From a virus (lineage: Duplodnaviria; Heunggongvirae; Uroviricota; Caudoviricetes): DNA of 42,694 bases. Shown here one piece after another: positions 12,887 through 17,639 of this stretch; the stretch's first letter is position 1; each line of letters opens with the position of its first letter. Made by a program: the position numbers and the translations under genes. The notes beneath the pieces are model-generated. The model saw only the letters and a program-made list of their open reading frames with translations. It ran no database searches and was not told where the DNA came from. Location of the stretch: positions 1 to 42,694 of IMG/VR virus record IMGVR_UViG_2690316224_000012; one strand, 5' to 3'.

Positions 12887-13763
12887 GTTAGCTGATTACA
12901 GGCATAACCCTGTACAACATCAGGAGGCATCCAGTATGGGGTATGCCTTTATACACCGCCAGTTTATGGACAGCAGGCTCTATAAGGACTCTCAGGCAGT
13001 ACATCTTTGGCTTCACTTAATCCTCAAGGCTAATCACGAATCTACTGTCGTCAATACGGATATCGGTCCGATAACTGTTGATCGCGGTCAGATGATAACT
13101 GGACGCCCGTCGCTGGTCAGAGAAACATTCATCCCCGACAACAAAGTTCGGAGCTTATTACGGACTTTTGAGTCGAAGGGGATGCTTAATATTTGCTCGA
13201 TGGGGAAGAAATTTAGCCTGTTTACAATCGTTAAATATGACGATTTTCAGGCAAAAAATTGTCCAACGGTTGTCCAACGGTTGTCCAACGCAAACACCAG
13301 TAATGGCGCGGCTCTCAGCGGAGATTGTCCAACGGTTGTCCAACGGTTGTCCATAAACAATAATATAAATAATATCTCTAATACTGACGTATTAGAGAGT
13401 GCCACAGCAGACAAAAAGTCTGACAAGAAAAAACCTTCCGTCAGCTGTCAGGATGTTGTCGATGCTTACCACGAAATCCTTCCTGAAGCGCCAAGAATCC
13501 GCGCACTGAATGACAAGCGTAAAAACCAGATCCGAACGTTCTGGCGCAAAGCCGGAGTGATAACCCGCCAGCTTGACGGGCATGGGTTCACGATGCAGGA
13601 CTGGAGAAATTATTTGAGCTACGTAGGCGAAAATTGCCGATGGATGTTCGAAGAACGCCCAAACCATCAACGCGGAACCGTCTGGCACAAAAAGGGATTT
13701 GACTTCCTGCTTAACGACAATACCTACCTGAAAGTTCGTGAGGGTGAACACGATGACCGATAA
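12873..13763 (+). CDS. Replication initiation protein (lambda O-like, iteron-containing)
   Basis: 296 aa immediately upstream of the helicase gene; AGGAG SD; origin iterons lie within its coding sequence, as in lambda O. Confidence 0.7.
   Translation: MGVVKLADYRHNPVQHQEASSMGYAFIHRQFMDSRLYKDSQAVHLWLHLILKANHESTVVNTDIGPITVDRGQMITGRPSLVRETFIPDNKVRSLLRTFESKGMLNICSMGKKFSLFTIVKYDDFQAKNCPTVVQRLSNANTSNGAALSGDCPTVVQRLSINNNINNISNTDVLESATADKKSDKKKPSVSCQDVVDAYHEILPEAPRIRALNDKRKNQIRTFWRKAGVITRQLDGHGFTMQDWRNYLSYVGENCRWMFEERPNHQRGTVWHKKGFDFLLNDNTYLKVREGEHDDR
13259..13383. repeat. Replication origin: two clusters of three 11-bp iterons (TTGTCCAACGG) plus AT-rich tract
   Basis: TTGTCCAACGG x3 at 13259..13291 and x3 (last partial) at 13325..13354, followed by an AT-rich stretch at 13355..13383. 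Confidence 0.7.
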
Positions 13764-15189
13764 TTTTTATGCGCCGCCCCATAGCATCGAGGCAGAGCAG
13801 GCGGTTATTGGTGGATTGCTTCTGGATGATGACAGCAGTGAGCGCGTCCGGAAAGTTCTGGCGATGCTGAAGCCTGATTCATTTTACAGCCGACCACACA
13901 AAATCCTTTTCGAAGAAATAACCAGAATGCACCGGGAGCAAAAGCCAGTAGATGGGCTGACGCTTTTCGATGAACTGGAGCGCAAATCGTTAACGGCGTC
14001 TGTTGGCGGTTTTGCTTATATCGCTGAGATCGCAAAGAACACGCCAAGCGCAGCAAACATCGTTGCCTATGCAATGCAGGTTCGTGAAACCGCAATGGAA
14101 CGCTACGCCATCAACCGCATGACTGAAGCGACGGAATTGCTCTATTCCCGCAACGGAATGACTGCAACGCAGAAGTACGAAGCTATTCAGGCGATTTTCA
14201 CGCAACTGACAGACCATGCAAAAACCGGATCGCGTCGCGGCCTTCGCTCATTTGGTGAGGTCATGGAAGACTGGGTTAGCGACCTTGAGAAGCGATTTGA
14301 CCCGTCAGGTGAACAACGAGGAATGAGCACAGGGCTCCCATCGCTGGACAGGATGTTGTCACCGAAAGGTCTGGTGAAAGGCTCTCTGTTTGTCATTGGC
14401 GCTCGCCCTAAGATGGGGAAAACGACGCTATACAGCCAGATGGCAATCAACTGCGCAGTGCATGAGAAAAAGCCCGCTCTGATGTTCAGCCTTGAAATGC
14501 CCGGTGACCAGATACTGGAAAAACTGGTAGGACAGAAGTCAGGTGTTAACCCGAATATTTTTTACCTTCCGGCGACAAATGACGCTGATGACGGCTATCA
14601 GGGTGATTACGATGGTGACTTCAACAGGGCGATCGAAACAGCAAATCGCTTGAGTGAAATCGACCTGCTTTACATCGACGACACGCCGGGATTATCTCTG
14701 GCTCAAATCGTCAGCGAAAGCCGTCGAATCAAGCGAGAAAAAGGATGTGTTGGCATGATTCTGGTCGATTACCTGACACTAATGACCGCTGAGAAGGCCG
14801 ATCGCAACGACCTTGCTTACGGCATGATCACCAAAGGACTGAAGAACCTTGCCAAAGAGCTTGATTGCGTTGTTGTGCTTCTGACGCAGCTTAACCGCGC
14901 ACTGGAAAGCCGAACCAATAAACGCCCACTACCAAGTGACTCACGAGATACAGGGCAGATTGAACAGGATTGCGATTATTGGGTGGGGATCCATCGTGAA
15001 GGTGCTTTTGATGACAGTGTTCCACCTGGTGAAACCGAACTAATCCTTCGTCTCAATCGTCATGGCAATACCGGCACGGTGTATTGCATTCAGGCAAATG
15101 GCGCTATTTATGACACAGACCAACAGTCTGCTGAAATGCGCCGCCGTGAACGCGAGGAACCGCAGTCCAAGAAGAAAGGAGGATTCTGA
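13753..15189 (+). CDS. Replicative DNA helicase (DnaB family, P22 gp12-type)
   Basis: N-terminal DnaB-like domain (IEAEQAVIGGLL); Walker A GARPKMGKTT; ATG at 13753 with GAGGGTG SD overlaps the initiator stop. Confidence 0.85.
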   Translation: MTDNFYAPPHSIEAEQAVIGGLLLDDDSSERVRKVLAMLKPDSFYSRPHKILFEEITRMHREQKPVDGLTLFDELERKSLTASVGGFAYIAEIAKNTPSAANIVAYAMQVRETAMERYAINRMTEATELLYSRNGMTATQKYEAIQAIFTQLTDHAKTGSRRGLRSFGEVMEDWVSDLEKRFDPSGEQRGMSTGLPSLDRMLSPKGLVKGSLFVIGARPKMGKTTLYSQMAINCAVHEKKPALMFSLEMPGDQILEKLVGQKSGVNPNIFYLPATNDADDGYQGDYDGDFNRAIETANRLSEIDLLYIDDTPGLSLAQIVSESRRIKREKGCVGMILVDYLTLMTAEKADRNDLAYGMITKGLKNLAKELDCVVVLLTQLNRALESRTNKRPLPSDSRDTGQIEQDCDYWVGIHREGAFDDSVPPGETELILRLNRHGNTGTVYCIQANGAIYDTDQQSAEMRRREREEPQSKKKGGF

Positions 15190-15264
15190 TGACCATCTAC
15201 ATCACTGAGCTAATAACAGGCCTGCTGGTAATCGCAGGCCTTTTTATTTGGGGGAGAGTAAATC

Positions 15265-15471
15265 GTGGCTGAGTTTATGCTCGTCGCATTCAAATGCGTT
15301 GGCGTTGGATGGATTCTTCTGACGTTTTTTATTGTTCTGCGTAGCTACATTCGTCTTGTGAATGACGGCAAAGACCCATGGTATACGTTGTTTGGCGCTG
15401 CATTTGTCTGGGTGATTATCGGTGTTATGCCTGTTGTCGTAGCAAAAATGGCGTGGCGTTTTGTGAGTTGA
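15265..15471 (+). CDS. Small hydrophobic membrane protein (68 aa)
   Basis: GTG start with GGAGAG SD; two predicted TM helices. Confidence 0.45.
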   Translation: MAEFMLVAFKCVGVGWILLTFFIVLRSYIRLVNDGKDPWYTLFGAAFVWVIIGVMPVVVAKMAWRFVS

Positions 15472-15488
15472 ACTGAGGGTAAGTATCG

Positions 15489-15752
15489 ATGGACGAATCA
15501 AGAAAGCAGTTTGAAGAATGGTTTGAAAATTACACCGGATGTGATCCTAAAAATAAAATATACGCCAATATGGTTGAGATGTATTGGCAAGCGTGGCAGG
15601 CATCGCGAGCAGCTATCGAGATTGAGCTGCAAAAGCCAAAGAAAGGCCCACTTCCCGGTGATTATCACATTGGCTATGACTCAGGTGCAGAATCGCAATA
15701 CGAAAGCGATGTAGAGGCTATCCGCGCCGCTGGAATCAAAGTGAAGGAGTGA
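15489..15752 (+). CDS. Hypothetical nin-region protein, paralog A
   Basis: First 36 nt identical to the gene at 16210; shared internal motif WQASRAAIE. Confidence 0.6.
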   Translation: MDESRKQFEEWFENYTGCDPKNKIYANMVEMYWQAWQASRAAIEIELQKPKKGPLPGDYHIGYDSGAESQYESDVEAIRAAGIKVKE

Positions 15753-15754
15753 GC

Positions 15755-15940
15755 ATGAGTCGACGAAGTAGCTTTTTGGGGTTTGTAATATTCCTGTTCT
15801 GCACTGGTTACATCGTAATCTGGTCAATTTCGAACATTGACCGTGGCGGGGAATATCTCATTGTAATGTTCTTTCCTTTGTTTCTTGGGTGGTACGCCGC
15901 AAGGTTGCTGGAAGAATGGGGTTACAGGCATAAAAAATAA
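15755..15940 (+). CDS. Small hydrophobic membrane protein (61 aa)
   Basis: ATG at 15755 with AAGGAG SD; two predicted TM helices. Confidence 0.45.
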   Translation: MSRRSSFLGFVIFLFCTGYIVIWSISNIDRGGEYLIVMFFPLFLGWYAARLLEEWGYRHKK

Positions 15941-15999
15941 AGGAGTGTTCAGTGAAGCAAACCCTTTTTTATTGGATTAAGAGCGAGTGGTAAGTACCG

Positions 16000-16182
16000 A
16001 TGGTAAATGCATTTATTTGTAGTTTATTTCTTGTCGCGATTTTTCATGGATTCCTTCTGATGATGAGTTTTGTTCTCTGGAATAATGGATATCGCATATT
16101 GGGAGTAGGTTTTGTTTTACGGTTTTCAGTTGTCTGCGCGTTGCTACCGATAATTATGGCGACTATCAAATATTATTGGTAA
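16000..16182 (+). CDS. Small hydrophobic membrane protein (60 aa)
   Basis: ORF with two predicted TM helices; weak SD. Confidence 0.4.
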   Translation: MVNAFICSLFLVAIFHGFLLMMSFVLWNNGYRILGVGFVLRFSVVCALLPIIMATIKYYW

Positions 16183-16209
16183 CCCAAAAAATCATCGATG
16201 GAGAGTGAT

Positions 16210-16539
16210 ATGGACGAATCAAGAAAGCAGTTTGAAGAATGGTTTAAAAACAAATATCACGTTTCAAGTGACGTGATGAAGATTATGCACATCAAGGTCG
16301 AGATTGCATGGGAGGCATGGCAGGCATCGCGAGCAGCTATTGAACTGGATATCGACTGGCCCGAATCGAATGACGACTTTTGGAAAGATGGTGAAGAAGG
16401 TGCTTATGCGATGGGTTATGAGGATGGGAGAGACAAAACGGTAATTGCAGTAATGAAAGCTATCAGATCCGCTGGAATTAAAGAGAAGAATTTCGATGAA
16501 GCAAATATACATGCTTCGCAACGAAGCAATCAGAAATAA
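16210..16539 (+). CDS. Hypothetical nin-region protein, paralog B
   Basis: ATG at 16210 with GGAGAG SD; N-terminus MDESRKQFEEWF identical to paralog A. Confidence 0.6.
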   Translation: MDESRKQFEEWFKNKYHVSSDVMKIMHIKVEIAWEAWQASRAAIELDIDWPESNDDFWKDGEEGAYAMGYEDGRDKTVIAVMKAIRSAGIKEKNFDEANIHASQRSNQK

Positions 16540-16942
16540 CGCCATAGACGCAATACTCTCACTTCCCATCGACGACAAGTCACCCCACGAAGTCCACCTT
16601 AAAGAACCCAAACGCAGCAAAGCGCAGAATGACCGTATGTGGCCGATGCTGAACGATGTTTCGCGTCAGGTGCTATGGCATGGTCAACGGCTGGCACCGG
16701 AAGACTGGAAAGACCTGTTCACTGCCCTGTGGCTTAAGACCAAAAAACTGGAGCAACGAAGTGTTCCTGGTATCGACGGTGGCGTTGTCATGCTTGGCGT
16801 GCGTACCAGCAAAATGCGAAAGGCCAGCATGACTGAGCTTATCGAAATCATGTTCTGGTTCGGCTCAGAGCGCAACGTGCGGTGGAGTGATGACTCCCGG
16901 CGAGAGTATGAATGGTCACAACGAAAAGGGAAGGCTGCATGA
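16496..16942 (+). CDS. ninB: NinB (Orf) recombination mediator
   Basis: Resembles lambda NinB (...QNDRMWPMLNDVSRQVLWHG... vs ...QNRKLWACLGDVSRQVEWHG...). Confidence 0.8.
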   Translation: MKQIYMLRNEAIRNNAIDAILSLPIDDKSPHEVHLKEPKRSKAQNDRMWPMLNDVSRQVLWHGQRLAPEDWKDLFTALWLKTKKLEQRSVPGIDGGVVMLGVRTSKMRKASMTELIEIMFWFGSERNVRWSDDSRREYEWSQRKGKAA

Positions 16943-17466
16943 CTATCAAATCAAATACGCCGGCACACGACAAGGACTGCTGGCAAACGCCGCTTTGGCT
17001 TTTTGATGCACTGGATATTGAGTTTGGATTCTGGCTGGATTCGGCAGCGAGCGACAAAAATGCTCTGTGTGCTCACTGGCTAACTGAGGCCGACGACGCG
17101 CTCAATTCTGAGTGGGTAAGCCACGGTGCAATCTGGAATAACCCACCGTACAGCAATATCAGACCGTGGGTGGAAAAAGCCGCTGAGCAGTGCATACAAC
17201 AGCGACATACGGTAGTTATGCTTGTGCCAGAGGATATGTCAGTCGGATGGTTCAGCAAGGCTCTGGAGAGTGTCGACGAAGTTCGCATTATCACTGATGG
17301 ACGGATTAATTTTATCGAACCATCGACAGGGTTGGAGAAGAAGGGAAACAGCAAAGGCTCCATGCTGCTGATTTGGCGACCGTTCATCAGTCCTCGACGG
17401 ATGTTTACTACCGTATCCAAAGCGGCATTGATGGCGATCGGGCAGGGCGTCAGGAGGGCGGCATGA
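16939..17466 (+). CDS. Phage DNA N6-adenine methyltransferase (Dam-like)
   Basis: NPPY catalytic motif (IWNNPPYSN); ATG at 16939 overlaps the ninB stop (ATGA). Confidence 0.8.
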
Positions 17467-17639
17467 GGCGACAGCGACGAAGTTTCACCGACATCATCTG
17501 CGAAAACTGCAAATACCTTCCAACGAAACGCTCCAGAAATAAACGCAAGCCAATCCCAAAAGAATCTGACGTAAAAACCTTCAATTACACAGCTCACCTG
17601 TGGGATATCCGGTGGCTAAGATATCGTGCGAGGAAATGA
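17463..17639 (+). CDS. ninE: NinE-like protein
   Basis: 58 aa [23 protein letters not shown]...; ATGA overlap with the methyltransferase stop; AGGAGGG SD. Confidence 0.65.

What the first reader, a model, noticed from the sequence alone, without database searches (positions are those of the whole stretch)
15265..16539. Duplicated nin-region module: two paralogous proteins sharing an identical 36-nt 5' end, interleaved with three small two-TM membrane peptides
The genes at 15489 and 16210 begin with the identical sequence ATGGACGAATCAAGAAAGCAGTTTGAAGAATGGTTT and share later conserved patches but diverge elsewhere. Between and around them lie three 60-68-aa hydrophobic ORFs (15265, 15755, 16000). 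This is not the canonical lambda nin content. Small membrane peptides paired with soluble partners are reminiscent of toxin/antitoxin or exclusion modules, though that is speculative.
Basis: partly seen in the sequence, partly recalled or inferred. Interest (0 to 1): 0.5.

Follow-up and report, generated by a model that had tools for sequence, protein, structure and literature searches.

The report
Recombinant small-gene stack before phage ninB
Two alternative versions of the small-gene filling that lambdoid phages carry between the tR2 terminator and ninB were joined end to end by one illegitimate crossover; this is ordinary phage mosaicism, and nothing supports a toxin/antitoxin module.

Summary
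Two genes (15489-15752 and 16210-16539) share an identical 36-nt start and are 47% identical as proteins. Three 60-68-aa two-transmembrane (TM) ORFs lie around them.

The window is a P22-like prophage. The stretch sits between ninA, which carries the lambda tR2 terminator (15189-15269), and ninB (16496).

Both paralogs belong to Pfam PF26207 (Phage_phiTE_015, phrog_343), a family of small acidic helical proteins with no known function and no known fold. The identical start is the commonest allele of a family-wide motif.

The "duplication" is a recombinant joint. After the second TM gene come the ninB ribosome-binding site and its first 11 nt. The sequence then switches into the 3' half of a variant tR2, followed by the third TM gene and paralog B.

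The left half is 98.8% identical, without gaps, to a single-copy phage. The joint occurs in 58 of 5,426 complete E. coli genomes.

Across 78 loci the slot shows 35 gene arrangements. TM genes and paralogs occur without each other, so obligate pairing is not supported.

TM68 and TM61 are under purifying selection. TM60 is only probably a gene.

Protein functions remain unknown. This is a new member of a known kind, of low to moderate interest.

The parts
13738..15189 (+). DnaB-type replicative helicase (P22 gene 12 equivalent). Upstream boundary of the slot.
   Evidence: Pfam DnaB_C E=2e-60 and DnaB E=5e-31.
15189..15269 (+). ninA mini-ORF (26 aa, MTIYITELITGLLVIAGLFIWGRVNRG). Its ATG overlaps the helicase stop codon. 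Its hydrophobic reading is largely a by-product of the tR2 terminator it contains.
   Evidence: Near-identical to P22 ninA, Nil3/PA52 'NinA' and the lambda ren-ninB gap. phrog_5907 E=1.8e-18. A second allele (L003) has a different stem that still forms a hairpin plus U-run.
15218..15251 (+). tR2 intrinsic terminator: stem AGGCCTGC / GCAGGCCT with an 8-nt loop, then TTTTTATTT.
   Evidence: Terminator scan. RNA fold -16.7 kcal/mol, z=-2.7. The same sequence is annotated as tR2 in Nil3 and as a terminator in P22.
15265..15471 (+). TM68: 68-aa two-TM protein with a GTG start 4 nt inside the ninA end and a GGGGGAGAG Shine-Dalgarno (SD) sequence. Real gene, function unknown.
   Evidence: phrog_1165 E=1.7e-38 over the full length. 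ORF intact in 23 of 23 distinct alleles, including clades about 50% diverged; pN/pS 0.54.
15489..15752 (+). Paralog A: 87-aa acidic protein of family PF26207 / phrog_343. Cassette combination V1 + C0.
   Evidence: phrog_343 E=3.2e-30. Family HMM E=3.5e-33. Exact protein seen on at least 1000 contigs. Cassette typing.
15755..15940 (+). TM61: 61-aa two-TM protein. AGGAG lies 6 nt upstream and the ATG lies 2 nt after the paralog A stop codon. Real gene, function unknown. In single-copy phages it lies directly upstream of ninB.
   Evidence: dN/dS 0.19 against a 72%-identical homolog (46 nt differences), with the other frames full of stops. Exact protein on 199 contigs. No Pfam, PHROG or NCBIfam family. 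Not annotated by PGAP.
15940..15962 (+). Orphaned ninB translation start: SD AAGGAG plus GTGAAGCAAAC, the first 11 nt of the ninB allele that follows TM61 in single-copy phages. Left side of the recombination joint.
   Evidence: Alignment of the junction with L003, L004, L005, L022, L035 and L070, where the same bases continue into ninB. In-window repeat D4 against the true ninB start at 16492-16505.
15963..15993 (+). 3' half of a variant ninA/tR2 allele (CCTTTTTTATTGGATTAAGAGCGAGTGGTAA). Right side of the joint. The 5' stem arm is missing, so no terminator hairpin remains. Together with the ninB remnant it forms a chimeric 13-codon ORF (15952-15993, MKQTLFYWIKSEW) ending 6 nt before TM60.
   Evidence: The same bases end the variant ninA ORF just before TM60 in L003, L070 and L083. 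Fold of 15940-16000 is no better than shuffles, z=+0.6.
16000..16182 (+). TM60: 60-aa two-TM ORF, very hydrophobic (GRAVY 1.52). Probably a gene. Lies immediately upstream of a family member wherever it was seen.
   Evidence: ORF intact in variants 98-80% identical, but dN/dS is 0.64-0.85 on only 11-16 substitutions, so inconclusive. A divergent 62-aa two-TM relative occupies the same position in L067. No family in any library.
16210..16539 (+). Paralog B: 109-aa acidic protein of family PF26207 / phrog_343. Cassette combination V0 + C4. GGAG lies 6 nt upstream of ATG 16210. The last 44 nt overlap ninB, so its C-terminal tail depends on which ninB allele follows.
   Evidence: phrog_343 E=4.2e-32. 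Homologs 97-100% identical carry precomputed PF26207, which is named Phage_phiTE_015. AF2 model with pLDDT 80, all helical. Tail variation.
16496..16942 (+). ninB (Orf recombination mediator). Downstream boundary of the slot.
   Evidence: Pfam NinB E=4e-48; phrog_72 E=1.3e-59.

Best explanation
What it is. The stretch is the accessory-gene slot that lambdoid phages carry between ninA/tR2 and ninB. Here it is filled twice.

How it arose. One phage carried tR2 - TM68 - paralog A - TM61 - ninB. Another carried variant tR2 - TM60 - paralog B - ninB. A single illegitimate crossover joined codon 4 of ninB in the first to the 3' half of the variant tR2 in the second. The product is TM68 - A - TM61 - [ninB start fused to tR2 tail] - TM60 - B - ninB. 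Homologous exchange has since spread this joint among E. coli prophages.

The paralogs. They are two alleles of the Phage_phiTE_015 family. These are small acidic helical proteins with three conserved scaffold motifs:
- an N-terminal motif, M..SRxQFExW;
- a central motif, WxAWQASRAAIE;
- a C-terminal motif, AIRAAGxKVK.
The motifs bracket two variable cassettes that assort independently. Exchange points fall within or next to the conserved stretches, which stay nearly identical at the DNA level. That is why both genes start with the same 36 nt.

Expression (inferred from position). All five genes lie downstream of tR2 in the rightward early operon, with no promoter of their own. They should therefore be made only during lytic growth, after N-type antitermination. 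They have close-packed starts with SD sequences. The orphaned ninB ribosome-binding site plus the 13-codon chimeric ORF probably feeds ribosomes to TM60.

Function (inferred, low confidence of about 0.25). The phiTE_015 proteins may be soluble binders whose two exposed cassettes set target specificity for a host or rival-phage factor. On that reading, two copies with different cassettes would widen the range. The two-TM miniproteins are independent accessory membrane proteins, not their partners.
For: Slot identity:
- 15189-15269 matches ninA/tR2 of lambda, P22, Nil3 and PA52.
- ninB begins at 16496.

The joint:
- 15940-15962 equals the SD sequence plus the first 11 nt of ninB as found after TM61 in six single-copy loci.
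- 15963-15993 equals the end of the variant ninA that precedes TM60 in L003, L070 and L083.
- The remnant is also detected inside the window as repeat D4.

The parents:
- 15101-15962 is 98.8% identical, without gaps, to L035, which then runs on into ninB.
- 15963-16240 is 98.9% identical to L070 and L003.

Spread of the joint:
- It is contiguous in 58 of 5,426 complete E. coli genomes and in no sequenced phage record.
- It is present in L001, L002 and L006-L010. L002 has the joint without paralog A upstream.

Family membership and shape:
- phrog_343, precomputed PF26207, and 564 clusters at 50% identity.
- The motif layout is visible in alignments A2 and A4.
- AF2 model at pLDDT 80: the conserved N-terminal and central motifs map to two helices at pLDDT above 90, with the variable cassette between them.

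Cassette shuffling:
- 15 V types and 12 C types give 18 sets in which all four combinations occur.
- P0043 carries B's V cassette with A's C half.
- SJC33 has the same layout, nearly identical in DNA, with only the V cassettes swapped.
- 40 of 77 alleles share the same first 27 nt.
- Homologous cassettes show saturated pS with pN/pS 0.28, so they are old alleles kept by selection.

Slot mosaicism:
- 35 arrangements among 78 loci, drawn from at least 25 small gene families.

Expression context:
- The terminator lies at 15218. There is no + strand promoter-like site in 14900-17000.
- SD sequence contexts are listed.

Literature:
- nin genes are non-essential, tightly packed with ATGA overlaps, drawn from a pool of 30-50 genes, and ascribed to illegitimate recombination (PMC5630979, PMC8022706).
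Against: - No experiment or homology gives any function for the family or for the TM proteins. The binder idea rests only on the scaffold-plus-cassette pattern, the acidic charge, and the presence of a Lar-like restriction-alleviation gene in the same slot of 933W.
- The joint could also have arisen by unequal crossing-over between two copies of one Gally-like genome (TM60 - family gene - TM61 - ninB), with later replacement of the flanks. The data do not distinguish this from a cross between two different phages.
- The right-hand parent is matched only up to the start of B. No sampled single-copy locus carries exactly TM60 plus the V0+C4 allele plus this ninB allele.
- Expression and antitermination are inferred from position alone.
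- The locus sample was chosen by similarity to paralog B, so the frequencies are biased.
Confidence: 0.72

Rival explanations
1. Toxin/antitoxin or exclusion modules. Each small membrane peptide would be a toxin or exclusion effector, neutralised or controlled by the adjacent soluble paralog, and the pair would have been duplicated.
For: - Small hydrophobic peptides sit next to small acidic soluble proteins.
- TM60 lies directly upstream of a family member in every locus where it was seen: L002, L003, L067, L070, L083 and L090-L096.
- About 66 of 78 family-containing slots hold at least one membrane ORF.
Against: - The three TM peptides share no similarity.
- TM61 occurs after TM-less neighbours and, in L088, directly after the helicase with no family gene next to it, though that contig ends about 135 nt downstream.
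- The family gene has no membrane ORF in its slot in about 12 of 78 loci, nor as a neighbour in 933W or in loci such as L103 and L108 from other genera.
- The TM60 linkage rests on few, closely related sequences, so it may simply reflect common descent.
- There are no hits in Pfam, NCBIfam, PADLOC or Rfam to toxin, antitoxin or defence families.
- No promoter-like site on the + strand. The single minus-strand site is below chance expectation (1 found, 3.5 expected).
- The genes lie behind tR2, so they are unlikely to be expressed in a lysogen, where exclusion or addiction functions would act.
Confidence: 0.06
2. The phiTE_015 proteins are accessory factors of NinB/Orf recombination. They would act together with the recombination mediator encoded just downstream, and the two copies would be redundant.
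For: - The family gene lies immediately upstream of ninB, or one small gene away, in nearly all sampled loci. These include prophages of Pseudocitrobacter, Atlantibacter and Erwinia.
- Paralog B overlaps the ninB start by 44 nt.
Against: - Lambda and P22 have ninB without any family member.
- Fixed gene order is a general property of lambdoid genomes and does not by itself imply joint function.
- The family's namesake is phiTE_015, and the ST64T record notes similarity to Pseudomonas phage D3 orf41. The gene contexts in phiTE and D3 were not examined here.
- The two halves of the protein shuffle independently of the ninB allele.
Confidence: 0.12
3. Some of the small ORFs are not genes. TM60 in particular, and the 13-codon chimeric ORF, would be untranslated spacer that reads as hydrophobic because it is T-rich.
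For: - TM60 has dN/dS of 0.64-0.85 on few substitutions.
- Only three homolog clusters turned up among 5.8 billion.
- There is no PHROG, Pfam or NCBIfam family, PGAP does not call it, and its SD sequence is weak.
- ninA shows how a terminator can mimic a hydrophobic ORF.
Against: - The TM60 ORF is intact in all variants down to 80% identity, while the other frames carry stops.
- A 62-aa two-TM relative with the shared LMSFVLW motif occupies the same position in L067.
- The argument does not apply to TM68 (23 of 23 alleles intact, PHROG family) or TM61 (dN/dS 0.19).
Confidence: 0.15

Closest known systems
The nin region of lambdoid phages (lambda ren-ninA/tR2-ninB; P22 gene 12-ninA-ninB), as described by Juhala et al. 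2000, Casjens et al. 2004 and Cheng et al. 1995, cited in PMC5630979 and PMC8022706
   Same: - Same position, after the replication genes and tR2 and before ninB.
- Same tight packing with overlapping start and stop codons.
- Same mosaic shuffling of small non-essential genes by illegitimate and homologous recombination.
- ninA/tR2 is essentially identical to that of lambda and P22.
   Different: - Lambda and P22 have nothing between ninA and ninB, whereas this phage has 1.23 kb holding five genes.
- The double filling, with a visible ninB::tR2 joint, is a specific recombinant form found in about 1% of complete E. coli genomes.
Pfam PF26207 Phage_phiTE_015 / PHROG 343 (family of unknown function; members include 933W ST933Wp31, ST64T orf-86, Nil3 ORF29; the phiv205-1 member is annotated as similar to Sf6 gene 48)
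   Same: - Both paralogs match along their full length and carry all three conserved motifs.
- They have the same size range (80-120 aa) and the same position upstream of ninB.
   Different: - Two copies in one phage is unusual: 8 of 86 sampled sources, mostly the same recombinant.
- No member has a known function.
Class II holins and pinholins (for example phage 21 S68, two TM segments, about 70 aa); comparison from general knowledge
   Same: Similar size and a two-TM hairpin topology in TM68, TM61 and TM60.
   Different: - They lie in the early operon, not in the lysis cassette next to an endolysin.
- They have no holin family match.
- There are three unrelated sequences rather than one holin/antiholin pair.
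Type I and type II toxin-antitoxin systems with small membrane toxins (Hok/Sok, TisB, and similar); comparison from general knowledge
   Same: Small hydrophobic peptides that could in principle damage the membrane.
   Different: - No antisense RNA family or convincing antisense promoter.
- No obligate gene pairing.
- No promoter of their own.
- Two TM segments rather than the single one usual for type I toxins.

Membership tests
Pfam PF26207 Phage_phiTE_015 / PHROG 343 | Significant full-length match to the family profile | tested here: met
   phrog_343 E=3.2e-30 for A and 4.2e-32 for B. Proteins 97-100% identical to B, and P0043 with A's C half, carry precomputed PF26207, which is named Phage_phiTE_015. 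The model is missing from the local Pfam copy, so the Pfam match is by proxy.
Pfam PF26207 Phage_phiTE_015 / PHROG 343 | The three conserved motifs (M..SRxQFExW; WxAWQASRAAIE; AIRAAGxKVK) | tested here: met
   All are present in both A and B. F8, W37 and G89 are invariant across 100 diverse members.
lambda/P22 ninA with the tR2 terminator | Sequence identity to annotated ninA/tR2; hairpin plus U-run; position right after the replication gene | tested here: met
   The stem-loop and T-run are identical to those of lambda, P22, Nil3 and PA52. Terminator scan and fold. The ATG overlaps the helicase stop codon.
Type II toxin-antitoxin module | Obligate co-occurrence of the two genes as an adjacent pair | tested here: not met
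   There are 35 slot arrangements. The family gene occurs without TM neighbours, and TM61 occurs without an adjacent family gene.
Type II toxin-antitoxin module | Homology of either partner to known toxin or antitoxin families | tested here: not met
   No hits in Pfam, NCBIfam or PADLOC for any of the five proteins. The only near-hit is a sub-threshold Glyoxalase_4 match for paralog A.
Type II toxin-antitoxin module | Own autoregulated promoter | tested here: inconclusive
   The consensus scan finds no + strand sigma-70-like site in 14900-17000. Such a scan cannot exclude weak promoters.
Type II toxin-antitoxin module | Toxicity of one partner, rescued by the other | not testable with these tools
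   Needs expression experiments.
Type I toxin-antitoxin (small membrane toxin plus antisense RNA) | Antisense or overlapping small RNA gene with its own promoter and terminator | tested here: not met
   Rfam gives only two chance-level matches far below gathering scores. One minus-strand promoter-like site was found against 3.5 expected by chance.
Class II holin | Location in the lysis cassette next to an endolysin, and a holin family match | tested here: not met
   The genes lie between the helicase and ninB in the early operon. There is no holin family in Pfam or PHROGs.
Prophage superinfection-exclusion membrane proteins (for example SieB, HK97 gp15, Cor) | Homology to a known exclusion protein | tested here: not met
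   No match in Pfam, PHROGs (beyond families of unknown function), NCBIfam or PADLOC.
Prophage superinfection-exclusion membrane proteins (for example SieB, HK97 gp15, Cor) | Expression from the repressed prophage | not testable with these tools
   Position behind tR2 with no detected promoter argues against it, but transcript data are needed.

The most novel reading that the evidence does not exclude
The Phage_phiTE_015 proteins are a two-cassette specificity family. A conserved helical scaffold displays two independently shuffled variable surfaces that bind and neutralise a polymorphic host or rival-phage target, for example a defence or exclusion component. Phages then widen their range by stacking alleles, as here. 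In that case the accompanying two-TM miniproteins might be part of the same lytic-phase takeover toolkit.
Probability: 0.12. Interest if true: 0.6.

Novelty: new member of a known kind. Interest (0 to 1): 0.25.

Why it matters
As it stands, this is a clean worked example of how lambdoid phage mosaics are built. The crossover point can be read to within a base or two, because it left an orphaned ninB start fused to half a terminator.

It also flags three further points:
- Two small membrane-protein genes (TM61, TM60) are missing from RefSeq annotation wherever that annotation was inspected: two prophages in full, and the junction region in 12 listed genomes.
- ninA's "membrane peptide" look is a side effect of the tR2 terminator.
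- A widespread phage protein family (564 clusters at 50% identity) has a scaffold-plus-two-cassette design that recombination reshuffles.

If that family proves to be a specificity factor in phage-host conflict, the catalogue of cassette types would become useful. Without functional data, the finding does not change what is known about nin regions.

Tried and rejected
- Function by homology for the five proteins. Pfam, NCBIfam, PHROGs and PADLOC gave only families of unknown function.
- Sub-threshold Glyoxalase_4 match for paralog A (22.2 bits against a cutoff of 27). It probably explains the "VOC family protein" name in UniRef, and I rejected it as a function.
- Solved-structure sequence search: nothing.
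- Similarity among TM68, TM61, TM60 and DUF7301: none, and DUF7301 is not hydrophobic.
- RNA families in 14500-17500: only chance-level matches.
- Literature on phiTE_015, PF26207 or phrog_343: nothing on function. Papers on nin regions gave general context only.
- Programmed hypervariation of the cassettes (diversity-generating retroelement-like). I rejected this because the cassettes fall into discrete old allele types with saturated synonymous divergence and pN/pS 0.28. I did not scan the window for a reverse transcriptase.
- Simple in-place tandem duplication followed by divergence. This is disfavoured. A and B differ in both cassettes at saturating divergence, yet each matches alleles circulating in other phages at 98-100%. 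Unequal crossing-over between two similar genomes, followed by flank replacement, is not excluded.
- The 90% cluster that groups TM60 with phiTE_015 proteins. The sequences show no relationship, so I treat it as a clustering artefact.
- The genome-contig scan gave only 8 loci. They are useful for gene order in other genera but too few for statistics.
Full report
**Setting**

The window is a P22-like lambdoid prophage. A DnaB-type helicase gene ends at 15189 and ninB starts at 16496, followed by a Dam-type methyltransferase gene. The finding lies entirely between the helicase and ninB.

**Check of the observation**

The 36-nt string occurs exactly twice in the window, at 15489 and 16210, and never in shuffled sequence. 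Two further shared patches follow it.

The encoded proteins, A (87 aa) and B (109 aa), are 47% identical with E=3e-23. ORFs of 68, 61 and 60 aa at 15265, 15755 and 16000 each have two strongly hydrophobic segments.

The 26-codon ORF at 15189-15269 also reads as hydrophobic. It is ninA, the tiny ORF that carries the tR2 terminator.
- Its stem-loop and T-run are identical to the lambda ren-ninB gap, to P22 ninA (terminator annotated) and to Nil3 (tR2 annotated).
- It is picked up by the terminator scan and folds well.
- A second allele seen in phage Gally (L003) has a different stem that still makes a hairpin plus U-run. What is conserved is the terminator, not the peptide.
- In lambda and P22, ninA abuts ninB directly. 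Here 1.23 kb is interposed.

**The paralogs**

Both match phrog_343 along their full length. Close homologs carry precomputed Pfam PF26207, whose name is Phage_phiTE_015. The local Pfam copy lacks this model.

An exhaustive profile search finds 564 clusters at 50% identity. Most are 80-100 aa, and some carry a short CxxC...CxC N-terminal extension.

Alignments show three conserved motifs separated by two variable stretches.
- N-terminal motif: M..SRxQFExW.
- Central motif: WxAWQASRAAIE, followed by a short strand.
- C-terminal motif: AIRAAGxKVK.

With a 100-sequence alignment, AlphaFold gives pLDDT 80 and an all-helical model. The N-terminal and central motifs map to two helices at pLDDT above 90, with the first variable cassette between them.

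No solved or predicted viral structure resembles the model. No paper in the library discusses the family. Known members include 933W ST933Wp31, ST64T orf-86 and Nil3 ORF29; the phiv205-1 member is annotated as similar to Sf6 gene 48.

**Why the 5' ends are identical**

Among 77 distinct alleles collected from related loci, 40 begin with the same 27 nt. Third codon positions in the N-terminal motif are 86% conserved.

Homologous variable cassettes, by contrast, are saturated at synonymous sites, with pN/pS of 0.28.

The variable N-half falls into 15 types and the C-half into 12 types, and the two assort freely. Eighteen sets show all four combinations. Two examples:
- Protein P0043 has B's N cassette with A's C half.
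- The E. coli SJC33 prophage has the same five-gene layout in nearly identical DNA, except that the N cassette of each paralog is swapped for another type.

So the conserved stretches mark where exchange takes place. The 36-nt identity is a family property, not a mark of recent duplication.

**How the double arrangement arose**

In single-copy phages, TM61 is followed by AAAGGAGTRTTCA GTG AAG CAA ACA ATA..., which is the ribosome-binding site and start of ninB (L003, L004, L005, L022, L035, L070).

In the window the same bases run to GTGAAGCAAAC (15962). They then switch to CCTTTTTTATTGGATTAAGAGCGAGTGGTAA. In L003, L070 and L083 this sequence is the end of the variant ninA/tR2 that precedes TM60.

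The joint therefore fuses codon 4 of ninB to the 3' half of a terminator. This leaves a 13-codon chimeric ORF and no hairpin. The remnant is also visible inside the window as a repeat of the true ninB start (D4).

The two halves match known phages:
- The left half (15101-15962) is 98.8% identical, without gaps, to the single-copy IMG/VR phage L035, which then continues into ninB.
- The right half (15963-16240) is 98.9% identical to L070 and L003.

One illegitimate crossover between a phage of the first type and one of the second gives exactly the window's order.

The joint is contiguous in 58 of 5,426 complete E. coli genomes and in no sequenced phage record. It also occurs with other upstream content (L002), so it has since been passed around by homologous exchange.

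**Are the small ORFs genes?**

- TM68 matches phrog_1165. It is intact in 23 of 23 alleles, including clades about 50% diverged. It is a real gene.
- TM61 has a 72%-identical relative with 46 nucleotide differences and dN/dS of 0.19, while the other frames are full of stops. It is a real gene, although PGAP does not call it.
- TM60 has only close relatives, with dN/dS of 0.64-0.85 on 11-16 changes, plus one divergent 62-aa two-TM ORF in the same position. It is probably a gene, but this is not proven.
- All have a Shine-Dalgarno sequence or a coupled start.

**Are the TM peptides paired with the paralogs?**

The three peptides are unrelated to each other.

In 78 loci that have both ninA and ninB, the slot shows 35 arrangements drawn from at least 25 small gene families.
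- Upstream of the family gene one finds TM68, TM60, a 107-aa single-TM protein, DUF7301 or other soluble proteins.
- Downstream one finds TM61, a 100-aa TM protein, soluble proteins or nothing.

About 12 of the 78 loci have no membrane ORF in the slot at all.

A TM61 relative sits right after the helicase, before ninA, with no family gene next to it (L088); that contig ends about 135 nt downstream. In 933W the slot holds the family gene plus a Lar-like restriction-alleviation gene. In other genera the family gene keeps its place before ninB but its TM neighbours are not conserved.

Nothing matches toxin, antitoxin, defence or small-RNA families. No + strand promoter-like site lies in the stretch. 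The toxin/antitoxin or exclusion reading is therefore not supported. Only the TM60-family linkage is consistent, and it rests on few, closely related sequences.

**Mechanism: shown and inferred**

Shown:
- the identity of the slot;
- family membership of A and B;
- the recombination joint and the existence of both parental arrangements;
- combinatorial shuffling of cassettes and of neighbouring genes;
- purifying selection on TM68, TM61 and the cassettes.

Inferred from position and from established lambda biology:
- transcription from the rightward early promoter only after antitermination at tR2;
- translational coupling, including possible feeding of TM60 by the orphaned ninB ribosome-binding site.

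Inferred with low confidence:
- the phiTE_015 proteins are soluble binders whose two exposed cassettes set specificity for a polymorphic host or phage target;
- stacking two alleles broadens that specificity.

The functions of the TM miniproteins are unknown.

**Verdict**

This is a real, well-explained feature and an ordinary product of nin-region mosaicism, with an unusually legible crossover scar. It contains members of a catalogued but uncharacterised protein family and under-annotated small membrane genes. I score it as a new member of a known kind, interest 0.25.

Noticed in passing
window 15189-15269; L003 893-973: The ninA "hydrophobic peptide" is the tR2 terminator read as codons: the GC-rich stem gives Gly/Leu/Ala and the U-run gives Leu-Phe-Ile/Tyr-Trp. 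Two alleles have different stems, and both fold as a hairpin plus U-run. This amounts to compensatory replacement of the whole stem.
   Followed up: yes
window 15755-15940 and 16000-16182; NZ_CP080255 (L001), NZ_CP193495 (L002), and the junction hits: RefSeq/PGAP annotation leaves TM61 and TM60 uncalled. The junction region shows no features in the listed complete E. coli genomes, while GenBank submitters call TM61 on 199 contigs. TM61 is clearly under purifying selection.
   Followed up: partly
window 15489-15752: UniRef names the exact paralog A sequence "VOC family protein". The only basis seen here is a sub-threshold Glyoxalase_4 match (22.2 bits against a cutoff of 27), so this is probably a misannotation.
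   Followed up: partly
window 16496-16539: Paralog B overlaps ninB by 44 nt in another frame. Its C-terminal tail (…NFDEANIHASQRSNQK) therefore changes with the ninB allele downstream (…EANNLPPK/N in SJC33 and ML775). Frame-fused readings into ninB also appear in databases (P0001, P0013).
   Followed up: partly
L076 2775-3294; protein P0309: Independent duplications occur within the family. L076 has two directly adjacent family genes in a different arrangement. P0309 contains an internal repeat of the N-terminal half (FE.W...W..W.AA appears twice).
   Followed up: no
proteins P0172, P0179, P0205, P0224 (and P0030): Some family members carry a roughly 32-aa N-terminal CxxC…CxC zinc-ribbon-like extension. 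P0205 has a further MMWAIKHKSGRVLF… module in front of it. These look like mini-modules fused in frame. None has a Pfam match.
   Followed up: partly
L087 (phage 933W) 2248-2607; window 16939-17466: In 933W the same slot holds a Lar-like restriction-alleviation gene next to the family member. In the window and in 933W, ninB is followed by a Dam-type methyltransferase. This is a weak hint that the neighbourhood collects anti-restriction functions.
   Followed up: no
L090 2174-2494 (107-aa membrane-anchored protein, family g3): A frequent alternative slot gene encodes an N-terminally anchored 107-aa protein. Its C-terminus (…REEFNEAWRRLSERG) resembles the N-terminal motif of the phiTE_015 family.
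   Followed up: no
cluster 4: The 90%-identity cluster that contains TM60 also lists phiTE_015 proteins of 73-113 aa with no sequence relationship to it. This looks like an artefact of the collection's clustering.
   Followed up: partly
window 16182..16153, minus strand: The single sigma-70-like site in the region points antisense into the 3' end of TM60. It is below chance expectation (1 found, 3.5 expected), so it was not pursued.
   Followed up: no
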